Part shown: positions 35,803 to 43,528 of the stretch, piece by piece
Layout of the letters: the number at the start of each line of letters is the position of its first letter
How positions within the stretch are numbered: position 1 is the first letter of the stretch
DNA from: a virus
Length of the DNA stretch: 64,000 nucleotides
Direction: 5' to 3' (one strand)
IMG/VR virus record: IMGVR_UViG_3300009030_000001
Coordinates: 1 to 64,000 of that record
The notes under the pieces: generated by a model
What the model saw: only the letters and a program-made list of their open reading frames with translations
Database searches by the model: none
What the model was told of the DNA's origin: nothing
Translations under genes and position numbers: made by a program

Positions 35803-35972
35803 AGGCCCTGACCATCCGCGAGGTGCGCGATGCCCTGGAAGACTAGACACCAACACTCTTTGGCGTGGTAGACTGGCCTTCTCCATCGCGGGCAACCGTC
35901 GATCGCGGGGGGTGGTTCCAAGCCGCCCTGCCCAGCGGTGGTTTTCTTGGACGCATCACTTGGAGGTGCAAC

Positions 35973-36437
35973 GTGAAGACAATCGAAGAACGGTTCTGGG
36001 CGAAGGTCGAGAAGAGACCTGACGGATGCTGGGAGTGGACCGGGGGCACAACAGGGAGCACCGGCTACGGCCAGTTTTGGGTAAAGCATCGGCACCAACT
36101 GGCTCACCGATTCTCTTACACGGTGATTCACGGCTTGGAGATCCCTCCAGGGCTGACCATCGACCACCTGTGTCGGAACCGGCTGTGCGTGAATCCGGCT
36201 CACCTAGAGCCCGTGACCAATCGGGTGAACGTCCTGCGAGGTAATGGGCCTGCGGCCCGGAACGCGAAGAAGACCCACTGCAAACGCGGCCACGAGTTCA
36301 CGCCAGAAAACACCTATCGACAACGCCGCAAGAGGGGAGTCGTCGCTAGGTTGCGTCGGACGTGTCGGACGTGCCGGCGCCGCCTCGAACATGAGTATCG
36401 GAGGAGGGTGCGATTATCGGCACGGCCGAAGTCGTAG
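35973..36437 (+). CDS. HNH endonuclease
   Basis: GGAGG + GTG start; ERFWAKV...CWEW...GYG...AHR...IDHLCRNRLCVNPAHLEPVT..VN. Confidence 0.9.
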   Translation: MKTIEERFWAKVEKRPDGCWEWTGGTTGSTGYGQFWVKHRHQLAHRFSYTVIHGLEIPPGLTIDHLCRNRLCVNPAHLEPVTNRVNVLRGNGPAARNAKKTHCKRGHEFTPENTYRQRRKRGVVARLRRTCRTCRRRLEHEYRRRVRLSARPKS

Positions 36438-36640
36438 GTGTCGGACCCCACCCCACGTCGCGTTGGGCGGGCCCAGTAGCGGTACACTGGCTCCTAGCGA
36501 GACCAAGGGCGATCGAGACGCCAATCCCCTGCAAGGGCGCACTGGGCCTGTGGGACGTCCCTGGGGACATCTTGGAACGGCTCGTCGTATCCGGCGTGGC
36601 GGAATACACCGATCCGCCGAAAAAGGTGGAGAAGGCTTGA
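36407..36640 (+). pseudogene. C-terminal remnant of an ASCH-domain gene (N-terminal stub MKALTIR at 35799)
   Basis: Start-less frame reading GAIIGTAEVV...HWLL..PR.IETPIPCKGALGLWDV. Confidence 0.65.
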
Positions 36641-36665
36641 ACAATCCCACCCCTCCCCTATATTG
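36637..36665 (+). promoter_or_regulatory. Promoter family copy B
   Basis: TTGAAC aatcccacccctcccc TATATTG. Confidence 0.65.
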
Positions 36666-36709
36666 ATACCCGTTGGCCAAGTTGGTCAGCAGAACCAGGA
36701 ACACGGAAC

Positions 36710-37156
36710 ATGACCAAAACGATCGAAACCCTCTCTCCCAACGACACCGGCAAGGCGCTCCGCGCCGCACTGAAGACGACTTTTCCCGGCGTGAAATTCA
36801 GCGTTCGCAAGGACGGCTACAACACTTTCCGGATCCGTTGGACCGATGGACCGATGCAAACGGAAGTCGACGTGATCGCGAACGCGTTCCAGGGAACGAC
36901 CTTCGACGGTTCTACCGACTCGACGATCTACCTCCATACGCAGATCGAATGGAATGGCGGGATCTACGAGACCGGCGCCGGATACGTCTTCACTAGCCGC
37001 GATCTGAGCGATGGGTGGAAAGCCGCCGCAGAAGAACGCATCCGATTCCTCGGCTACAACGGCAGCGACTTGGACATGGCTTGCGCCATTCGGATGTTCC
37101 TCAACGGGGAGAGCATCGAGAGTGCTGCGCACCACAACCACCTTCAACTGAACTAG
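36710..37156 (+). CDS. LPD29 (large polyvalent protein-associated domain 29) protein
   Basis: K.LR.ALK..FPGVKFSVR......I.WTDGP....V......F.G..FDG..D. Confidence 0.75.
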   Translation: MTKTIETLSPNDTGKALRAALKTTFPGVKFSVRKDGYNTFRIRWTDGPMQTEVDVIANAFQGTTFDGSTDSTIYLHTQIEWNGGIYETGAGYVFTSRDLSDGWKAAAEERIRFLGYNGSDLDMACAIRMFLNGESIESAAHHNHLQLN

Positions 37157-37159
37157 AAC

Positions 37160-37534
37160 ATGAAGACCGTCGAACAACGCGGTCAGGAACCGACACTCGA
37201 ATGCAAAGGACTCTGCCAGGACTCGTGCGGCCCAGTCCCCATGACCGCGGAACAGGTGGCGACTCTCCAAGACGCCAGCGGCGAGACCTACAGCGTGAGT
37301 CCGTTTCCGATGTTTCCCACCATGTTCATCTTGCAGCTACAGGAAGGTGGCTACTGCCCCGCTCTAGATGTCGAGAGTGGCAAGTGCAAGGGCTACGAGG
37401 GGCGCCCGAGAATCTGCCGACTGTTCGGTATGGTCGAGAAGATGAAATGTCCACACGGGTGCGAGCCGTCCCGGTGGATCACTGACGAGGAAGCGGCGAT
37501 CATGATTCCAACCATCATCAGATCGGAGGACTAG
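37160..37534 (+). CDS. YkgJ-like Cys-cluster (Zn/Fe-S) protein
   Basis: CKGLCQDSC...CPAL....C..YE.RP.ICRLFG...CPHGC. Confidence 0.75.
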   Translation: MKTVEQRGQEPTLECKGLCQDSCGPVPMTAEQVATLQDASGETYSVSPFPMFPTMFILQLQEGGYCPALDVESGKCKGYEGRPRICRLFGMVEKMKCPHGCEPSRWITDEEAAIMIPTIIRSED

Positions 37535-38089: not shown

Positions 38090-38162
38090 GCCGCCAATGG
38101 TTGAGCCGGAGGTCTGCTTTCATCCTCCTGGTGGCGAGGTTCGATTCCTCGCGGCGGCACCA
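38090..38162 (+). tRNA. Degenerate tRNA / tRNA-like element
   Basis: Acceptor GCCGCC/GGCGGC + A + CCA; perfect T-arm CGAGG-TTCGATT-CCTCG; no D-arm; 11-nt central loop containing CTTTCAT. Confidence 0.55.
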
Positions 38163-38242: not shown

Positions 38243-38872
38243 ATGGCAGACAAAGTAGAAAGGCTAGTAATCCCCCGTCCGAATCTCCAAACCATCAAGA
38301 TTCCGATTCGTGGAACTGCGCCATACGTGCAGCATAAGTTCTCTGCGAAGGTTAGCCAGGAGATGCTACAAGCGCAGGTGGATGGGGCCAAGTCGAAGAA
38401 CCGCAAAAAGACAAAGCCGCGCGACGTCGATGCGGACTACGAGAGCGCCATCCACTACTCGACGGAGGGGTGGATCGGCATCCCTGCGCCAGCATTCCGT
38501 AGCGCGTGCATCCGAGCGTGCAAACTCGTCGGCATCGAGATGACGATGGCTAGAATGTCGGTGTTCATCGAGCCCGACGGATTCGATGCTGACGAAGGGA
38601 CGCCGCTTGTCCGCATCTATGGTAAACCAGAACGGAACGAGTCCCCCGTCCGGATCGGACAGGGTACCGTTACCATCGCCATCCGCCCAATGTGGCGAAA
38701 GTGGACGGCCAAGGTCAAGGTCACGTTCGATGGCGACCAGTTCTCAGCACAAGACGTGCTCAACCTGATGCATCGCGCAGGGCTCCAAGTTGGAGTCGGG
38801 GAGGGTCGTCCCTTCTCCAAGAAGAGCGATGGGGTGGGGTGGGGTACCTTCGAAGTAGATGATACCAAATGA
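38243..38872 (+). CDS. RAMP/Cas7-like RNA-binding protein (Vipr-like)
   Basis: N-terminal strand I.GTAP, IPA.AFR.A, R....W...V, and a C-terminal Gly-rich loop AGLQVGVGEGRP...GWGTFEV typical of RAMPs; lies next to the GGY-NN array. Confidence 0.75.
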   Translation: MADKVERLVIPRPNLQTIKIPIRGTAPYVQHKFSAKVSQEMLQAQVDGAKSKNRKKTKPRDVDADYESAIHYSTEGWIGIPAPAFRSACIRACKLVGIEMTMARMSVFIEPDGFDADEGTPLVRIYGKPERNESPVRIGQGTVTIAIRPMWRKWTAKVKVTFDGDQFSAQDVLNLMHRAGLQVGVGEGRPFSKKSDGVGWGTFEVDDTK

Positions 38873-39342
38873 TGAACGACGAACAACTGGCAGCCTTGCA
38901 GGCTATCTATGACCGCGATGGGAACCTCAAGGCCAGCACTGTGCTGGCCGAGGCGACTCCGCCGGATGCTCCGTGCCACTCGCTGTTTGAGTGGGATGTG
39001 GAGAAGGCGGCACGGGAATTCAACCTCGACATTGCGCGGCAAATATGCCGGACCGTCGTCATCAGTCATGATGGTTTGGCGGAACGGTTGGTCAACGTCC
39101 CATCAATCCGGCGGGAGGGTGAGGAAAGTCAAGAGGGCTACTACCAGTTCCCGGGTGTGATGGTGCAGGACGAACACGATCGAGCGATGGGTCAGGCGTT
39201 GTCGGCGCTGCACGCGGCCCATGAGAATGTCGATGTGCTTGCCAAGGGTCCGAAGGGTTCACCTAACCTGAGGAAGGCGTTGAAAGGCATCAAGAGGGCT
39301 CAGGATCTCCTAGAATCTGAGCGTCAAGGCCCGGCGTCGTGA
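38869..39342 (+). CDS. Accessory protein of the RAMP-like locus
   Basis: L..IY..DG.L....V...A......H..FEWD...AA......AR...R; coupled to the RAMP gene, and its stop abuts the array. Confidence 0.7.
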   Translation: MMNDEQLAALQAIYDRDGNLKASTVLAEATPPDAPCHSLFEWDVEKAAREFNLDIARQICRTVVISHDGLAERLVNVPSIRREGEESQEGYYQFPGVMVQDEHDRAMGQALSALHAAHENVDVLAKGPKGSPNLRKALKGIKRAQDLLESERQGPAS

Positions 39343-39660
39343 GGCTGGGCAAGGCAGGTACTGCGAGGCACGGCAGGCAATGCGCGGCGTGGCACGGCGA
39401 GGCGGGGCAGGGCGTGGCTCGGTCCGGCACGGCACGGCAGGCGGGGCGCGGCGGGGCCTGGCCCGGCATGGCGAGGCGCGGCACGGCACGGCAGGCGAGG
39501 CGGGGCAGGGCGTGGCTCGGTCCGGCACGGCACGGCAGGCGTAGCGCGGTGTGGATAGGCAAGGCATGGCGAGGGCGGGCATGGCAAGGCAATGCAGGCA
39601 TGGCACGGTGTGGCTTGGCAGGGCGCGGTACGGCACGGCTTGGCAAAGCAGGCATGGCAT
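39343..39660 (+). ncRNA. GGY-NN pentamer array punctuated by 4-nt NGCA units (VIPR-like guide RNA array)
   Basis: ~58 pentamers of GGY + variable dinucleotide, split by seven GGCA/TGCA/AGCA units into blocks of 2, 3, 12, 10, 8, 11 and 10, plus 2 terminal pentamers. Confidence 0.75.
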
Positions 39661-39835
39661 AGTTTCCCACGACAAATGAACCAAGGTGCAGGCAGCCCAG
39701 AACAAATACCGCCGGTCAGGAGCCGGCTTGGCCTATCTGGTTTGCGTCTTCGTTCGAGGCAAACACCAACCCAATAACGGTGCTGCCTGCACCGACTTCT
39801 ACGATGATGGATTCGACGAAACCTCAAGATTCCAG

Positions 39836-39913: not shown

Positions 39914-41251
39914 ATGACTGAAGAGACCTTCTCCGACCTGACACTGATCGGGCTTCGCGTCCGTGATTTCATGCGTGTCAGTCTTGTCGAACTCAAACCG
40001 GACGAGTCTGGAACGATCGAACTACGCGGTGCGAATGCTGCTGGCAAGACGAGCGTGATTTGGGCGATCTGGGCGGCCTTGGGCGGTGGCCGCGTGTCGC
40101 CGGATCGACCCATCAAGGAAGGCGCGGAAGAAGCGTCGGTCATGCTCGACTTTGGTGACATCCTAGTCAAGCGGACCTGGGACGAGACCGGCACCAAGCT
40201 CGAAGTGCGACGGTCCAGCGATGGCACCACGATCAAGTCGCCGCAGAAGCTGTTGGACTCGCTCGTGTCCCAGTTCGTCGACCCGTGCCAGTTCCTCATG
40301 CTTCGACCCGAGGATCAGGCCGCGCAGGTTCTCGCCATGACAGGGTTAGCCGAACCACTGAGAGAACTGGACGACAAGGAAGAACGGGCGACGGAGGTTC
40401 GACGGGATCTTGGTCGAGATATGAAGCGGGCGCAAGGCGCCCACAGAACCGCGGCGGATGATCTTCCCGCACTCGACAAGGACGCGCCATCCATCTCGGA
40501 TGCGGCGGTAGCACTGAAGACGGAGACCGATTACTTTTTGCTACACACGTCGGAGAAGGAGAGTTTGGACTATGCCGTGCGCGACATCGATCGTGTGAAG
40601 GGATATATCACGACGCTGACCGAAGAGATCGCAGCGCGGACCACGCAGATTGGCGAACGCCAAGAGCAGTTGACGCGAACCCAAGGGGCGATTGTCGCGC
40701 ACACGAAATACCTCGCCGACAATCGCCAACCGGATCTTGACGGTGCGCAGAAGGCTTTGGACCTTGCAGAGACCCAGGCTGGAGCAGTCGCGGCACACAA
40801 GAACGAGAGGGATCTCAACACGGCGTTCTGCGCCGCGAAGAAACTGCACGACGGCGCCGAACATCGGGTGAAGGAGATTCGGTCGAAGCGCGCAACGATT
40901 CTGGAGGGCGCGGAGTTCCCGGTGGCCGCAATGAGCTACGACGCGGACGCGAAGACCCTGATGCTCGGAACGGTATCGTTCACGCAGGCGTCCAGCGCGG
41001 AACAGTTGAAAGCATCGATTGAGTTAGCCATTGCGGGCAGCCCTGGGATCAAGCTCCTGTTCGTGCGCGACGCTTCGCTGCTAGATTCGGATTCGCTCAC
41101 CGTCATTCGAACCATGGCCGCAGAGCGAGGGTACCAAGTCATCCTTGAGATCGTAGACGAAGACCCGGAAGGCCCAGGCGTGTTCATCGAGGATGGATGC
41201 GTACGAGAACAGAGTGAACCAAACAAACCGACACCCAAGGCATATGAGTGA
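39914..41251 (+). CDS. SMC/Rad50-like ABC-type ATPase
   Basis: Walker A GANAAGKTS, long coiled coil, signature ASSAEQ, Walker B-like LLFVRDASLLD. Confidence 0.85.
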   Translation: MTEETFSDLTLIGLRVRDFMRVSLVELKPDESGTIELRGANAAGKTSVIWAIWAALGGGRVSPDRPIKEGAEEASVMLDFGDILVKRTWDETGTKLEVRRSSDGTTIKSPQKLLDSLVSQFVDPCQFLMLRPEDQAAQVLAMTGLAEPLRELDDKEERATEVRRDLGRDMKRAQGAHRTAADDLPALDKDAPSISDAAVALKTETDYFLLHTSEKESLDYAVRDIDRVKGYITTLTEEIAARTTQIGERQEQLTRTQGAIVAHTKYLADNRQPDLDGAQKALDLAETQAGAVAAHKNERDLNTAFCAAKKLHDGAEHRVKEIRSKRATILEGAEFPVAAMSYDADAKTLMLGTVSFTQASSAEQLKASIELAIAGSPGIKLLFVRDASLLDSDSLTVIRTMAAERGYQVILEIVDEDPEGPGVFIEDGCVREQSEPNKPTPKAYE

Positions 41252-42031
41252 GCCAGACAGTCCGATACACATGCTCTCAGAGCGAACCAAGCCCCGCGAT
41301 ACCCACCGAGAATGAGTGAGCCAATCGTTGCGATACTCAGTCACTCCGAACGAGCCATCCACGTCGACACCCATACCACATGAGCGAACCAACTCCCCCG
41401 AAACCCAGAGACGATGAATGAGCCAGACTCTGCGATACCCACAGACGTCGATCGAACCAGAGACCCAGACACCCAGGCAAGAAGAGTGAGCCATCACGCC
41501 CGATACACACCCGTTGAGAGCGAACCACAGCCCTCGATACCCACGCACAGCGAGTGAACCACGTGAACGAACACCCAAGTGCAACGATTGATCCACACAA
41601 CCGGCGATCGAGCCAAGGATACTGATGTCCAAATCGTTCGAGCGAGTCAAAGAAACAGATACCCACACCATATGAGCGAACCAGCCGACCGGATGCCTAA
41701 AACCACAGAGTGAACCATCCAACATGATACCCACCCCCACGGAGTGAGTCAGGATCGTTGAAACACAAGGACTCGAAACGAACCACATGCCACGATGCCC
41801 AATTCGACAGAGTGAGCCACACCGAGTGACGCCCACTAGGCACGAACGAACCACGATGACCGATGCACAGAAAACAAGAGTGAACCAGGGCCACCGATAC
41901 CCAGATGCGATGAGTGAACCATGAGGGCCGATATCCAAGTCGGGTGAGTGAGCCAATAGCTGAGATACCCAGACGTCGTGAGCGAACCAGTACGAGCGAT
42001 ACCCAAACAGAACAAGTGAACCAAACAGGAT
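41212..42031 (+). ncRNA. TIGR-like dual-repeat array, upstream (23 full 34-nt units + 1 truncated + terminal partial)
   Basis: Unit = GANYGARCCA (10) + 8-nt spacer + GATACCCA-like (8) + 8-nt spacer. Starts at 41212, 41246, ... 41552; a 20-nt unit at 41586; then 41606 ... 42014. Confidence 0.9.
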
Positions 42032-42038
42032 AACAACC

Positions 42039-43151
42039 ATGACCGATACGAGTGTGCAGACCGCGTTAGACCTGACCCCCGCTGTTCAGCGGATAACGAA
42101 GGATCTACGCGAAGCCGTGAAGACCTTGAACGTGCAAGAGGCCCGGTACCTGGTCGACTACTACTACCAGATGCAGGAGGATCGGAAGCGGTCGGCGAAT
42201 CAGGAGCGGGCGGTGAAGGACGGCGCTGATACGGAAGGCCCGTCCGGTGCGGTGGCTTGGCTCGCTGCGCAGGGAAGGTGCATGGAAAGCCGGGTCAGGA
42301 CGTTCCTGGACATCTACTCCGGCCACCACCCTCTTGGGATCTGGGCCCGATCGAACGTGGGAATTGGCCCTGTTATCGCAGCCGGATTGCTCGCGCACAT
42401 CGACATGGCGCAGGCGCCGACCGCAGGACACATCTGGTCGTTCGCAGGATTGGATCCACGGGTGAAGTGGACCGGTGCAACCGAGACGGCGAAGGAACTG
42501 GAAGCGTGCCTCGGCGGGCGGCCCGACAAGGTGTCCTACGAGCATCTCGTCATGGCGTGCGAACACTTCCGGCGCAAGCCAGCCACGATTGAACGCTACG
42601 CCAAGCCGCTCAACTGGACGACGTTGGTGAAGGCGCTGAACCGGCGGCCGTGGAACACGCCGCTCAAAACTCTGTGCTGGAAGATCGGGGAGAGCTTCTG
42701 CAAGGTCTCGGGTAATCCAGACGCCTTCTACGGCAAGCTGTACGCCGAGTACAGGGTCGAAGAAGACCGGCGGAATATCGCTGGCGAGTACATACAGCAG
42801 GCGTATGACAAACTCGAACGCTTCAAGATCGGCAAGGACACCGACGCGCACTTGTGGTATGCGGGATGCCTTACTTCTGTCAACGCGAAAGACATTCGAA
42901 AGGCGGAGTCGAGCAAGCGTATGGGAATGGCGAAGAAACTGGCAGGCGATCCCGGAAGCGGACAGCCGATGTTGCCACCGGCCCACTTGTTCGCTCGCGC
43001 CAAGCGCCGTGTTGTCAAATTATTCCTCAGCCACTATCACCACGTCGGCTACATGCTCTCGCACGACGGCGAAGAACCCCCGCGCCCCTGGGCCCTTTGC
43101 CAAGGGGGGCATACCCATTTCATCCCGCCGCCCAACCTAGACAAACTGTAG
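42039..43151 (+). CDS. TasA-like Nop-domain RNA-guided protein (IS110 C-terminal/Nop fold, no nuclease domain)
   Basis: Coiled coil LVDYYYQMQEDR; GIGPVIAAGLL...IWSFAGLDP; WN..LK..CW..GESF; Y...Y; H...RAKR..VKLFL.H. No N-terminal DEDD RuvC and no HNH. Flanked by arrays. Confidence 0.85.
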   Translation: MTDTSVQTALDLTPAVQRITKDLREAVKTLNVQEARYLVDYYYQMQEDRKRSANQERAVKDGADTEGPSGAVAWLAAQGRCMESRVRTFLDIYSGHHPLGIWARSNVGIGPVIAAGLLAHIDMAQAPTAGHIWSFAGLDPRVKWTGATETAKELEACLGGRPDKVSYEHLVMACEHFRRKPATIERYAKPLNWTTLVKALNRRPWNTPLKTLCWKIGESFCKVSGNPDAFYGKLYAEYRVEEDRRNIAGEYIQQAYDKLERFKIGKDTDAHLWYAGCLTSVNAKDIRKAESSKRMGMAKKLAGDPGSGQPMLPPAHLFARAKRRVVKLFLSHYHHVGYMLSHDGEEPPRPWALCQGGHTHFIPPPNLDKL

Positions 43152-43528
43152 TCAGAACCCACGACACCCAGGACATCAGAACGAGTCAGTTCGAATGACA
43201 CACACACGATGAGAACGAGCCATGAAGTAGAATGCACAAAGTTGAGGATCGAGCCAAGATGAGCGATACCCAAACCCTCTGAGTGAGCCAACCCCTCCGA
43301 TACTCATCATCTAGGAGCTAGCCACCGTAGGCGATACCCATAACGCAAGATCGAGCCATGACAGGTAACACCCACAACATTAGATCGAACCACCACTGGT
43401 GATACACACTACCTCAGAGTGAGCCATAGGAGTTGATACCCAACATGATCGAACGAGCCACTTCTTGAGATGCCCAGAGCCTGAGATCGAGCCAGTCGCC
43501 AAGAGACCCATGAGAATCGAGCGAACCA
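43150..43528 (+). ncRNA. TIGR-like dual-repeat array, downstream (11 units + terminal repeat)
   Basis: Same 34-nt unit: edge repeats at 43179, 43213, ... 43519; the first, degenerate edge overlaps the Tas stop codon. Confidence 0.9.

What the first reader, a model, noticed from the sequence alone, without database searches (positions are those of the whole stretch)
38243..39660. RAMP/Cas7-like gene + partner + GGY-NN pentamer array (non-contiguous guide code, VIPR-like)
Seen: directly after the stop codon of 38869-39342 are ~58 pentamers with a fixed GGY and a free dinucleotide, cut into blocks by 4-nt NGCA units. NN strings of the main blocks: AA GC GT AC GA GG AG GT TC CC AC AC; GG GC GG CT CC AT GA GC AC AC; GA GG AG GT TC CC AC AC; GT GC GT TA AA AT GA CG AT AA AA; AT AC GT TT AG GC AC AC TT AA. 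The upstream 209-aa protein has RAMP hallmarks including the C-terminal Gly-rich loop, and no cas genes or CRISPR array are nearby. Known: Cas7-type RAMPs polymerise on RNA with a fixed nucleotide period. From memory (please verify), a viral system called VIPR with this GGY/NN design was recently reported. Inference: one subunit binds each GGY, the NN pairs spell a gapped target, and each block is one guide.
Basis: partly seen in the sequence, partly recalled or inferred. Interest (0 to 1): 0.92.

Follow-up and report, generated by a model that had tools for sequence, protein, structure and literature searches.

The report
Phage VIPR system with staggered guides
This is a real example of VIPR, a CRISPR-like RNA-guided DNA-silencing system of phages first described in 2026 preprints, so it is a good new member of a known kind and not a new kind of system.

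Summary
Directly after the stop codon of 38869-39342 lie 58 GGY-NN pentamers in 8 blocks, cut by seven 4-nt NGCA units. Runs reach 11 units, against at most 5 in 200 simulated genomes.

The 209-aa protein folds as a RAMP (pLDDT 92.6; Z 10.9 to Cmr4/Csm3). It is a sequence relative of the solved SUSP1 Vipr protein.

In IMG/VR, 78 of 80 loci encoding a homologue carry same-strand GGY-NN arrays. GGY is about 94% fixed and NN is near-random.

VIPR is in print (bioRxiv 10.64898/2026.04.26.720920). That paper's legend to fig. S18 describes "staggered" arrays with 1-nt overlaps, which fits the GGCA|GGC junctions here.

Local particulars:
- There is no 3' tail between guides.
- The accessory protein is unrelated to SUSP1 vap1.
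- The vipr-vap-array cassette is far more diverged than its flanks in the closest relative.
- A TIGR-Tas gene lies 2.4 kb downstream.

No convincing target was found, and no RNA data exist. This scan has noted such loci before on other DNA: 272 findings in at least 170 genomes.

The parts
38243..38872 (+). vipr: 209-aa stand-alone RAMP (Cas7-like) protein. It has a G-rich loop GVGEGRPFSKKSDGVGWG (residues 184-201) and a beta-hairpin at 129-151 that I take to be the thumb.
   Evidence: Matches phrog_4652, E 2.6e-21. AF2 model pLDDT 92.6, pTM 0.87. Foldseek PDB top hits are Cmr4/Csm3/type VII Cas7, E from 3.6e-5. VIA-align Z 10.9 (rmsd 3.5, 149 aligned) to 6s6b_I, and rows 1-31 are all CRISPR RAMP entries. 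PDB sequence hit 36pp_D 'SUSP1 Vipr protein', E 1.4e-5 and 1e-5. hhalign against SUSP1 agp039 gives probability 93.9%, E 1.6e-7.
38869..39342 (+). Accessory gene (vap-like), 157 aa. Conserved motif H..FEWD...A..YR..QAR..IR. The model shows an N-terminal helix/beta-wing domain and a C-terminal helical hairpin. The start overlaps the vipr stop (ATGA).
   Evidence: Matches phrog_15946, E 2.8e-13. tblastn finds relatives beside vipr in 43 of 83 fetched loci. Alignment A2 has invariant H37, F40, W42, A47, A56, Y92. AF2 pLDDT 94.4. Only weak winged-helix-type fold matches, best E 1.2e-2. Not similar to SUSP1 vap1, hhalign probability 0.12%.
39343..39660 (+). vrRNA array: 58 GGY-NN pentamers in 8 blocks punctuated by seven 4-nt NGCA units (a 'staggered' array)
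39343..39375 (+). Two short leading blocks (2 and 3 units), probably degenerate or a leader
   Evidence: The closest relative's array (L004) also starts with a short block.
39376..39439 (+). Guide block 2: 12 units plus GGCA
39440..39493 (+). Guide block 3: 10 units plus GGCA
39494..39537 (+). Guide block 4: 8 units plus GGCA, identical to the last 8 units of block 2 (a duplication)
   Evidence: TRF period 98
39538..39596 (+). Guide block 5: 11 units plus TGCA; three units depart from GGY
39597..39650 (+). Guide block 6: 10 units plus AGCA
39651..39660 (+). Two trailing units at the end of the array
39685..39793 (+). Structured non-coding element just after the array, closed by a long helix. 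It may be a terminator or 3' end element of the operon. Whether it belongs to the system is not shown.
   Evidence: MFE -52.1 kcal/mol, z -3.55, 0 of 200 shuffles fold as well. 88.5% identical in the closest relative L004 although the arrays differ entirely. Found only in the window and in L004 among the 83 loci searched. No Rfam match.

Best explanation
This is a VIPR (Viral Interference Programmable Repeat) system on a complete 73-kb phage genome.

Proposed mechanism:
1. vipr, the accessory gene and the array are read as one operon. This is inferred from the ATGA overlap and from the array starting at the base after the stop codon.
2. Vipr, a minimal Cas7-like RAMP, polymerises on the transcript with one protomer per 5-nt repeat. 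It buries each GGY and presents each NN pair. This is shown for SUSP1 by cryo-EM and inferred here from homology.
3. Each 4-nt NGCA unit shifts the pentamer register by -1. A filament therefore cannot continue in phase, and the transcript is divided into tail-less guides of about 8-12 units, five of them here. This is inferred. It matches the published 'staggered array' legend and the block lengths across the family.
4. Each ribonucleoprotein binds double-stranded DNA whose sequence reads NNxNNx... and blocks transcription of a competing mobile element or host gene. The rule is shown for type II VIPR and inferred here.
5. The 157-aa accessory protein, possibly a winged-helix DNA binder with a coiled-coil hairpin, assists. 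Its role is unknown.

The targets of the five guides are not identified.
For: Array:
- The array is real and far beyond chance.

Vipr protein:
- RAMP fold with high confidence.
- Sequence homology to the solved SUSP1 Vipr: phmmer E 1.4e-5, profile E 1e-5, hhalign probability 93.9%.
- In those alignments, and by my own counting of residues, SUSP1's GGY-contact residues R138, D177 and R179 correspond to R148, E187 and R189 here. H17 corresponds to H31 only in a weak N-terminal alignment. The residue list comes from 10.64898/2026.04.26.720927, section 5.
- Large family: 2527 representative clusters at E<=1e-3.

Homologous loci:
- 78 of 80 IMG/VR loci have same-strand GGYNN arrays beside the gene. 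So do Cyanophage Cy-LDV1 and Gordonia phages Pipp and ODay.
- Over 5031 pentamers from 106 distinct arrays, G is 0.945, G is 0.935 and Y is 0.948, while NN entropy is 3.86 of 4 bits.
- No guide of this window recurs in the other loci.
- 596 of 616 irregular units are 4 nt long. The junction consensus is GGC(A)N|GGCA|GGC(R)N, and internal blocks have a mode of 9-10 units.

Context:
- The accessory gene is conserved beside vipr in 43 of 83 loci.
- Viral setting: PHROG hits, direct terminal repeats, rated 100% complete, no Cas1.
- No self-target reaches 80% of NN bases for any guide of 10-12 units (block 2, 16 of 24; the 8-unit duplicate block 4, 13 of 16 = 81%). This agrees with the published finding that VIPR guides do not self-target (paper section 27).
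Against: - There is no RNA evidence. The only run listed is DNA.
- No convincing target was found by the NNx rule.
- The arrays lack the conserved 3' tail and pseudoknot of the characterised type II vrRNAs (compare). Processing and capping therefore cannot be copied from SUSP1.
- SUSP1's stacking residue W178 aligns with an invariant glycine here (G188), and the G-loop carries an 8-residue insertion.
- The accessory protein is not a relative of vap1, and its DNA-binding fold rests only on weak matches.
- 5 of 58 units depart from GGY.
- According to the paper's text, the staggered architecture has not been confirmed by sRNA-seq.
Confidence: 0.92

Rival explanations
1. The array is a passive pentanucleotide satellite, or a Gly/Ala/Arg-rich coding repeat that only happens to lie beside the gene. 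The equivalent stretch is annotated as a CDS in Gordonia phage Pipp.
For: Open reading frames cover the array on both strands. In Gordonia phage Pipp the array lies under an annotated CDS, gp43.
Against: - Several frames on both strands are open across the array, as expected from the G/C-rich composition, and the seven 4-nt units break any single reading frame.
- NN is near-random while GGY is fixed, the opposite of a slippage satellite.
- The arrays sit on the gene's strand in 78 of 80 homologous loci, each with different NN content.
Confidence: 0.02
2. It is a VIPR-type ribonucleoprotein whose output differs from SUSP1-style DNA silencing. It might bind RNA, act as a decoy or anti-VIPR array against rival phages' Vipr, or recruit the neighbouring ATPase or another effector for cleavage.
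For: - The accessory gene is unrelated to vap1.
- The vrRNAs have no 3' tail.
- No DNA target was found.
- An SMC/LmuB-like ATPase gene follows at 39914-41251.
- Published work shows solo vrRNAs used as decoys and anti-VIPR guides (10.64898/2026.10.15.759431: abstract and passages).
- The closest fold matches are RNA-targeting type III Cas7 proteins.
Against: - The locus encodes its own Vipr, so it is not a solo-guide decoy.
- The paper applies the same NNx DNA rule to other types and reports hits there (section 27).
- Fold similarity to Csm3/Cmr4 says nothing about the substrate.
- The ATPase is also present in the relative L004, but linkage across the family was not tested.
Confidence: 0.06

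Closest known systems
VIPR systems with 'staggered' vrRNA arrays (bioRxiv 10.64898/2026.04.26.720920, legend of fig. S18; the figure and data tables were not visible to me)
   Same: Stand-alone Vipr RAMP, one accessory gene and GGY/NN pentamers. Guides abut with a 1-nt overlap (GGCA[G]GC...), so the end of one guide marks the start of the next. There is no ribozyme (Rfam scan) and no spacer. The setting is a phage genome.
   Different: I cannot say which of the seven published types this is, or whether its accessory gene is one of vap1-6, because the supplements are closed. The text I read says only the ribozyme and single-guide architectures were confirmed by sRNA-seq, not the staggered one.
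Type II VIPR of Escherichia phage SUSP1 (NC_028808.2; vipr agp039, vap1 agp038; PDB 36pp)
   Same: Homologous Vipr. Same gene order, vipr-accessory-array, on one strand. Guides have about 10-12 repeats. The GGY-contacting R138, D177 and R179 have counterparts here.
   Different: - SUSP1 vrRNAs are separate units, each with a leader and a structured 3' tail, and use mostly GGT. Here the guides are contiguous, tail-less and mostly GGC.
- vap1 is not related to the accessory protein here.
- W178 is replaced by glycine, and the G-loop has an 8-residue insertion.
CRISPR-Cas Cas7-family RAMPs (Csm3, Cmr4, type VII Cas7, Cas7-11 domains)
   Same: RRM core, G-rich loop and thumb hairpin. Best structural matches are Z 10.9-9. 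These proteins also polymerise on guide RNA with a fixed period.
   Different: No CRISPR repeat-spacer array. No Cas1 in the genome, and no cas-type family (Pfam, NCBIfam or PADLOC) matched vipr or its partner; other cas families were not searched genome-wide. The period is 5 nt with only 2 read bases, against 6 nt with 5 read. The protein is a single small RAMP without a second RRM.
TIGR-Tas (tandem interspaced guide RNA) systems
   Same: Another compact phage-borne RNA-guided system with short tandem guide arrays. One is encoded 2.4 kb downstream in the same phage (NF052498.1, 153.4 bits against a cut-off of 100).
   Different: Unrelated protein (Nop-domain Tas, not a RAMP), a different repeat period and a dual-spacer logic. 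It is a neighbour, not part of this system.

Membership tests
VIPR | Vipr protein with RAMP fold (RRM core, G-rich loop, thumb) | tested here: met
   AF2 pLDDT 92.6. Foldseek finds 23 PDB matches at E<=1e-3; all those listed are CRISPR effector RAMPs. VIA Z 10.9, with rows 1-31 all CRISPR RAMP entries. The G-rich loop is invariant in the family alignment (G180, G188, R189, G197, G201).
VIPR | Sequence homology to an established Vipr protein | tested here: met
   PDB chain 36pp_D 'SUSP1 Vipr protein': E 1.4e-5 with the single sequence and 1e-5 with the profile. The profile finds SUSP1 agp039 in its genome at E 2.5e-7. hhalign probability 93.9%. The match covers only the C-terminal 55-80 residues.
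VIPR | Tandem YNNGG / GGYNN repeats (at least 4 units) next to vipr on the same strand | tested here: met
   58 pentamers at 39343-39660, with runs of up to 11 units against at most 5 in simulations.
VIPR | GGY conserved and NN hypervariable across related loci | tested here: met
   80 loci, 106 arrays, 5031 pentamers: GGY about 94% per position, NN entropy 3.86 of 4 bits. No shared guides. The closest relative L004 (Vipr 74% identical) has entirely different NN strings.
VIPR | Minimal locus of vipr plus an accessory (vap) gene, with no cas genes or CRISPR array | tested here: met
   The partner gene is conserved beside vipr in 43 of 83 loci. No Cas1 in the complete genome. No PADLOC or NCBIfam family matches either protein. 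Whether the partner is one of the published vap1-6 could not be tested. It is not vap1.
VIPR | Viral or proviral genome context | tested here: met
   The genome is a 73,154-base virus record with direct terminal repeats, rated 100% complete. Neighbouring genes match PHROG families.
VIPR | Array transcribed into discrete vrRNAs that co-purify with Vipr | not testable with these tools
   Only one DNA run is listed and no RNA holder.
VIPR | Natural targets that match by the 1-nt skip (NNx) rule | tested here: inconclusive
   - No match of 80% or more in the phage's own genome for the 10-12-unit guides, in the 83 fetched loci, or in the closest relative's 41-kb contig.
- 7 exact scans of IMG/VR gave 0 hits.
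- One lone 22/22 hit for block 2 in a MAG contig; by my estimate about 0.07-0.1 would be expected by chance.
- 3 unrelated hits for block 3 in metagenomes, at chance level.
- The collection scans were exact-match only, so imperfect targets would be missed.
VIPR type II (SUSP1-like) | Each vrRNA ends in a conserved structured 3' tail (pseudoknot), and units are separated by spacers | tested here: not met
   Blocks abut directly through 4-nt NGCA units. SUSP1 shows tails and spacers in the same analysis. So this is not type II; it fits the 'staggered' architecture.
CRISPR-Cas (class 1) | CRISPR repeat-spacer array plus a cas gene set including an adaptation module | tested here: not met
   No Cas1 in the genome. 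TRF lists no repeat-spacer array near the gene. Only the fold is shared.

The most novel reading that the evidence does not exclude
The most novel reading combines three ideas.
- In this VIPR clade the guides have no tail, ribozyme or spacer. The only punctuation is a -1 register slip (a 4-nt GGCA unit), so the phase of the Vipr filament itself would define where one guide ends and the next begins.
- The FEWD-motif accessory protein (phrog_15946) would be an accessory class not covered by the characterised vap1.
- Together with the array it forms a fast-evolving cassette inside an otherwise conserved phage backbone. The accessory protein is 39.5% identical, and the guides are all different, between phages whose flanks are 88% identical.
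This would point to an arms race acting on the accessory protein as well as on the guides.
Probability: 0.35. Interest if true: 0.5.

Novelty: new member of a known kind. Interest (0 to 1): 0.3.

Why it matters
VIPR is a months-old class of programmable DNA binders, proposed to be ancestral to CRISPR effectors. This locus adds nothing categorically new.

It is, however, a clean and complete example of the staggered, tail-less array type. As far as the text I could read says, that type has not been tested experimentally. The whole system is a compact 1.4-kb operon that could be expressed to ask two questions: how guides are delimited without a tail or ribozyme, and what the non-vap1 accessory protein does.

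The same complete phage genome also carries a TIGR-Tas gene 2.4 kb away. It is therefore a natural case of two unrelated RNA-guided systems in one virus.

Tried and rejected
Target search by the published NNx rule:
- Own genome, best per guide: 16/24, 15/20, 15/22 and 14/20. The 8-unit duplicate block 4 gave 13/16, which means little for so short a guide. The 0- and 2-nt skip controls scored the same.
- 83 fetched loci (616 kb): best 17/24, 16/20, 17/22 and 15/20, the same as the control skips.
- The closest relative's whole 41-kb contig: best 14-16 matches, the same as the controls.
- Exact scans of IMG/VR with block 2 (12, first 10 and last 10 units), block 3, block 5 (first 10 and last 10 units) and block 6: 0 hits in all 7.
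- Metagenome scan with block 2 (11 units): 0 hits.
- Genome-contig scan with block 2 (11 units): 1 hit, L084. This is an uncultured Dehalococcoidales MAG contig. The site is non-coding, about 130 nt upstream of an ORF with an excisionase-type HTH N-terminus as I read its sequence, and matches 22 of 24 over the full guide.
- I treat that hit as probably chance, for four reasons. About 0.07-0.1 hits are expected for this scan alone (my arithmetic). The other three guides have no match with up to 3 mismatches in that MAG. Among 301 genomes of its order only this site matches, and the reversed-pattern control also hits once with 3 mismatches. No Vipr homologue was found in those 301 genomes. Rfam finds nothing at the site.
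- Metagenome scan with block 3: 3 hits in unrelated genes on GC-rich contigs. By my estimate 1-4 are expected by chance.

Other attempts that led nowhere:
- RNA evidence: no RNA holder is listed.
- Accessory protein function: no Pfam, NCBIfam or PADLOC family. The PDB profile search gave nothing significant. Foldseek's best match is E 1.2e-2. VIA-align matched only the C-terminal helical hairpin and is uninformative. The ESM Atlas gives only unnamed viral clusters. The word-index search found only the protein itself.
- VIPR type assignment and the link to the paper's seed proteins: not possible. Supplements are closed and the listing of cluster members gave no accession numbers.
- Hammerhead or other ribozymes in the array: none found by Rfam at E<=1.
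Full report
**What is there**

The window is the first 64 kb of a single-contig virus record of 73,154 bases with 59% G+C. The record has direct terminal repeats and is rated 100% complete.

At 38243-38872 (+) lies a 209-aa gene. Its stop overlaps, as ATGA, the start of a 157-aa gene at 38869-39342. The base after that gene's TGA begins a 318-nt tract of pentamers.

Within 39343-39670 there are 59 GGY sites. Of the 58 spacings between neighbours, 45 are 5 nt, 6 are 4 nt, and the rest are 10, 9 or 6 nt.

Parsed, the tract holds 58 full pentamers in 8 blocks of 2, 3, 12, 10, 8, 11, 10 and 2 units. Each block is closed by a 4-nt unit: GGCA five times, TGCA once and AGCA once. Block 4 repeats the last eight units of block 2. 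By my reading, 53 of the 58 units are strict GGY.

Uninterrupted GGYNN runs of 11, 10, 8 and 10 units occur only here in the genome. In 200 Markov simulations of the genome the longest run was 5.

**The protein**

Pfam, NCBIfam and PADLOC have no family for the 209-aa protein. PHROGs places it in phrog_4652, of unknown function.

It belongs to a large family. There are 2221 proteins at E<=1e-3 in the word-indexed search and 2527 representative clusters in the exhaustive search.

With a 44-sequence alignment AlphaFold2 gives pLDDT 92.6 and pTM 0.87. Foldseek against the PDB returns 23 matches at E<=1e-3. All those listed are Cas7-type subunits of type III, VII and III-E effectors, starting with Cmr4 in 6s6b at E 3.6e-5. 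The Foldseek-independent aligner gives Z 10.9 (rmsd 3.5 A, 149 residues) to the same chain, and its first 31 rows are all CRISPR RAMP entries.

By sequence, the only PDB match is chain 36pp_D, named 'SUSP1 Vipr protein', at E 1.4e-5 with the single sequence and 1e-5 with the profile. hhalign of the family profile against the SUSP1 gene product (NC_028808.2 agp039, located) gives probability 93.9%, E 1.6e-7 and 32% identity over 65 columns.

In these alignments the SUSP1 residues reported to hold the GGY bases have counterparts here. R138, D177 and R179 fall on R148, E187 and R189. H17 falls on H31, but only in a low-scoring N-terminal alignment. W178 falls on an invariant glycine, and the G-loop carries an 8-residue insertion containing a GWG motif. 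The residue mapping is my own counting.

**Linkage of gene and array**

The scan of IMG/VR confirmed 542 stretches encoding a relative. The tool kept the best 80 loci.

Of these 80, 78 carry clusters of in-phase GGYNN units on the gene's strand. One of the two without an array has only 561 bases of sequence downstream. Small minus-strand clusters occur in two loci.

Arrays sit in three places: upstream of vipr in 24 of 80 loci, immediately downstream in 41, and after one further gene in 47. In 24 loci the array lies only after the further gene, as it does here.

The three GenBank phages I inspected (of six hit), Cyanophage Cy-LDV1 and Gordonia phages Pipp and ODay, show the same arrangement. 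In Pipp the array lies under an annotated CDS.

Over 5031 pentamers from 106 distinct arrays, the first three positions are G 0.945, G 0.935 and C/T 0.948. The NN pair uses all 16 dinucleotides with 3.86 of 4 bits of entropy. The parser scores GGY, so the first three figures lean towards it; the NN figures do not.

No guide of this window recurs in any other locus.

**Punctuation**

In the window, the three GenBank phage loci and the 80 IMG/VR loci together, 596 of 616 irregular units are 4 nt long. Among 389 internal blocks, 297 end in GGCA and 41 in CGCA. Block lengths run from 6 to 23 units, with a mode of 9-10.

The junction consensus is GGC(A)N | GGCA | GGC(R)N. Read with a shared G, this is the '1-nt overlap' of the staggered arrays described in the legend of fig. 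S18 of the VIPR paper.

Nothing like the SUSP1 leader, spacer or structured 3' tail is present between blocks (compare). Rfam finds no ribozyme.

**The partner gene**

It has no Pfam, NCBIfam or PADLOC family, but it matches phrog_15946.

tblastn finds relatives next to vipr in 43 of 83 loci. A 25-sequence alignment shows an invariant H..F.W....A core within the motif FEWDD..AA..YRL.QAR.LIR.

The model (pLDDT 94.4) has an N-terminal three-helix plus beta-wing domain and a C-terminal helical hairpin. Fold matches are weak. The best is a MarR-like archaeal DNA-binding protein at E 1.2e-2, followed by MukE, PadR and forkhead winged helices. The wide search saw only the hairpin. A winged-helix DNA-binding role is therefore a guess.

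The partner is not related to SUSP1 vap1 (hhalign probability 0.12%).

**What is known**

VIPR was reported in bioRxiv 10.64898/2026.04.26.720920. It comprises a stand-alone ancestral RAMP (Vipr), an accessory vap gene and vrRNAs of 9-16 YNNGG repeats. The NN pairs read double-stranded DNA with one skipped base per repeat, giving programmable transcriptional silencing aimed at competing phages and satellites. Seven types are described, including staggered, ribozyme-interspersed and single-guide arrays.

The companion structure paper shows one protomer per repeat, each GGY held between two adjacent protomers, and the skipped target base in a thumb-bundle pocket.

A third preprint shows the SUSP1 system protecting the phage from a satellite, and describes solo decoy guides. 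A fourth recovers 99 VIPR-like array clusters from a language-model survey.

This locus meets every sequence-level criterion of the class. It fails the type II tail criterion, so I file it as a VIPR system of the staggered-array kind, type not assignable without the supplements.

This scan has already noted such loci on other DNA: 272 findings in at least 170 genomes.

**Targets**

I applied the published NNx rule.
- No guide of 10-12 units matches this phage's own genome at 80% or more. This agrees with the paper's report that VIPR guides do not self-target.
- No guide matches the 83 fetched loci or the closest relative's whole contig above the control skip rules.
- Seven exact-match scans of IMG/VR and one of the metagenome collection found nothing.
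- Block 2 has one exact 22-base match in a non-coding stretch of an uncultured Dehalococcoidales MAG contig. It stands alone. The other guides do not match that MAG. A reversed-pattern control also scores once in the same 301-genome sample. No Vipr homologue is found in that order. About 0.07-0.1 chance hits are expected for that scan.
- Block 3 has three exact 20-base matches in unrelated genes of GC-rich metagenome contigs, as many as chance predicts.

The targets are therefore unknown. The exact-match limit of the large scans means this is weak negative evidence.

**A local observation**

The closest relative (L004) shares 88% nucleotide identity in the 300 nt upstream and 88.5% in the 130 nt downstream of the cassette. 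The next gene is 83% identical. Inside the cassette, vipr is 71% identical at the nucleotide level (74% protein), the accessory gene 59% (39.5% protein), and the arrays share no guide (5 main blocks here against about 10 there).

The cassette, and above all the accessory gene, is thus a hot spot of divergence in a conserved backbone. That is what a conflict system would show. I did not test recombination against point divergence.

**Verdict**

The class is published and has been seen many times in this scan, so it counts as a new member of a known kind. Interest is modest. Two questions remain open: how tail-less staggered guides are delimited, and what the non-vap1 accessory protein does.

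Noticed in passing
window 42039-43151 (+), with repeat arrays around 41212-43528: The 370-aa gene matches NCBIfam NF052498.1 'TIGR-Tas system RNA-guided endonuclease' (153.4 bits against a cut-off of 100). It has a weaker IS110/Transposase_20 match. This complete phage therefore carries a VIPR and a TIGR-Tas system within about 5 kb. Another note of this scan calls the protein nuclease-less; I did not examine that.
   Followed up: partly
window 38090-38158 (+): A tRNA-like element lies about 85 nt upstream of vipr. It has a 7-bp acceptor stem, a T arm with a GGTTCGATTCC loop, an encoded ACCA end and no D arm. ARAGORN does not call it. Rfam gives a below-threshold mascRNA-menRNA match, 29.2 bits, E 0.0084. 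MFE is -34.3 kcal/mol with z -2.29. It is conserved in the closest relative L004 only.
   Followed up: partly
window 39685-39793 (+): A structured element of about 110 nt, closed by a 12-bp helix, lies directly after the array. z is -3.55 and 0 of 200 shuffles fold as well. It is 88.5% identical in L004 although the arrays differ. No Rfam family matches.
   Followed up: partly
window 39914-41251 (+): A 445-aa SMC/RecF/LmuB-like ATPase (AAA_23, phrog_1499) follows the VIPR operon. It is conserved at 83% in L004. Linkage to VIPR across the family was not tested.
   Followed up: no
L002 3626-3895 (Gordonia phage Pipp gp43): This annotated 'hypothetical protein' CDS lies over the phage's GGYNN array and is probably a mis-annotation of a vrRNA array.
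   Followed up: partly
window 35865-37534 (+): Upstream neighbours are an HNH endonuclease (phrog_826), an LPD29-domain protein and a CxxCxxCC zinc/iron-chelating-domain protein.
   Followed up: no
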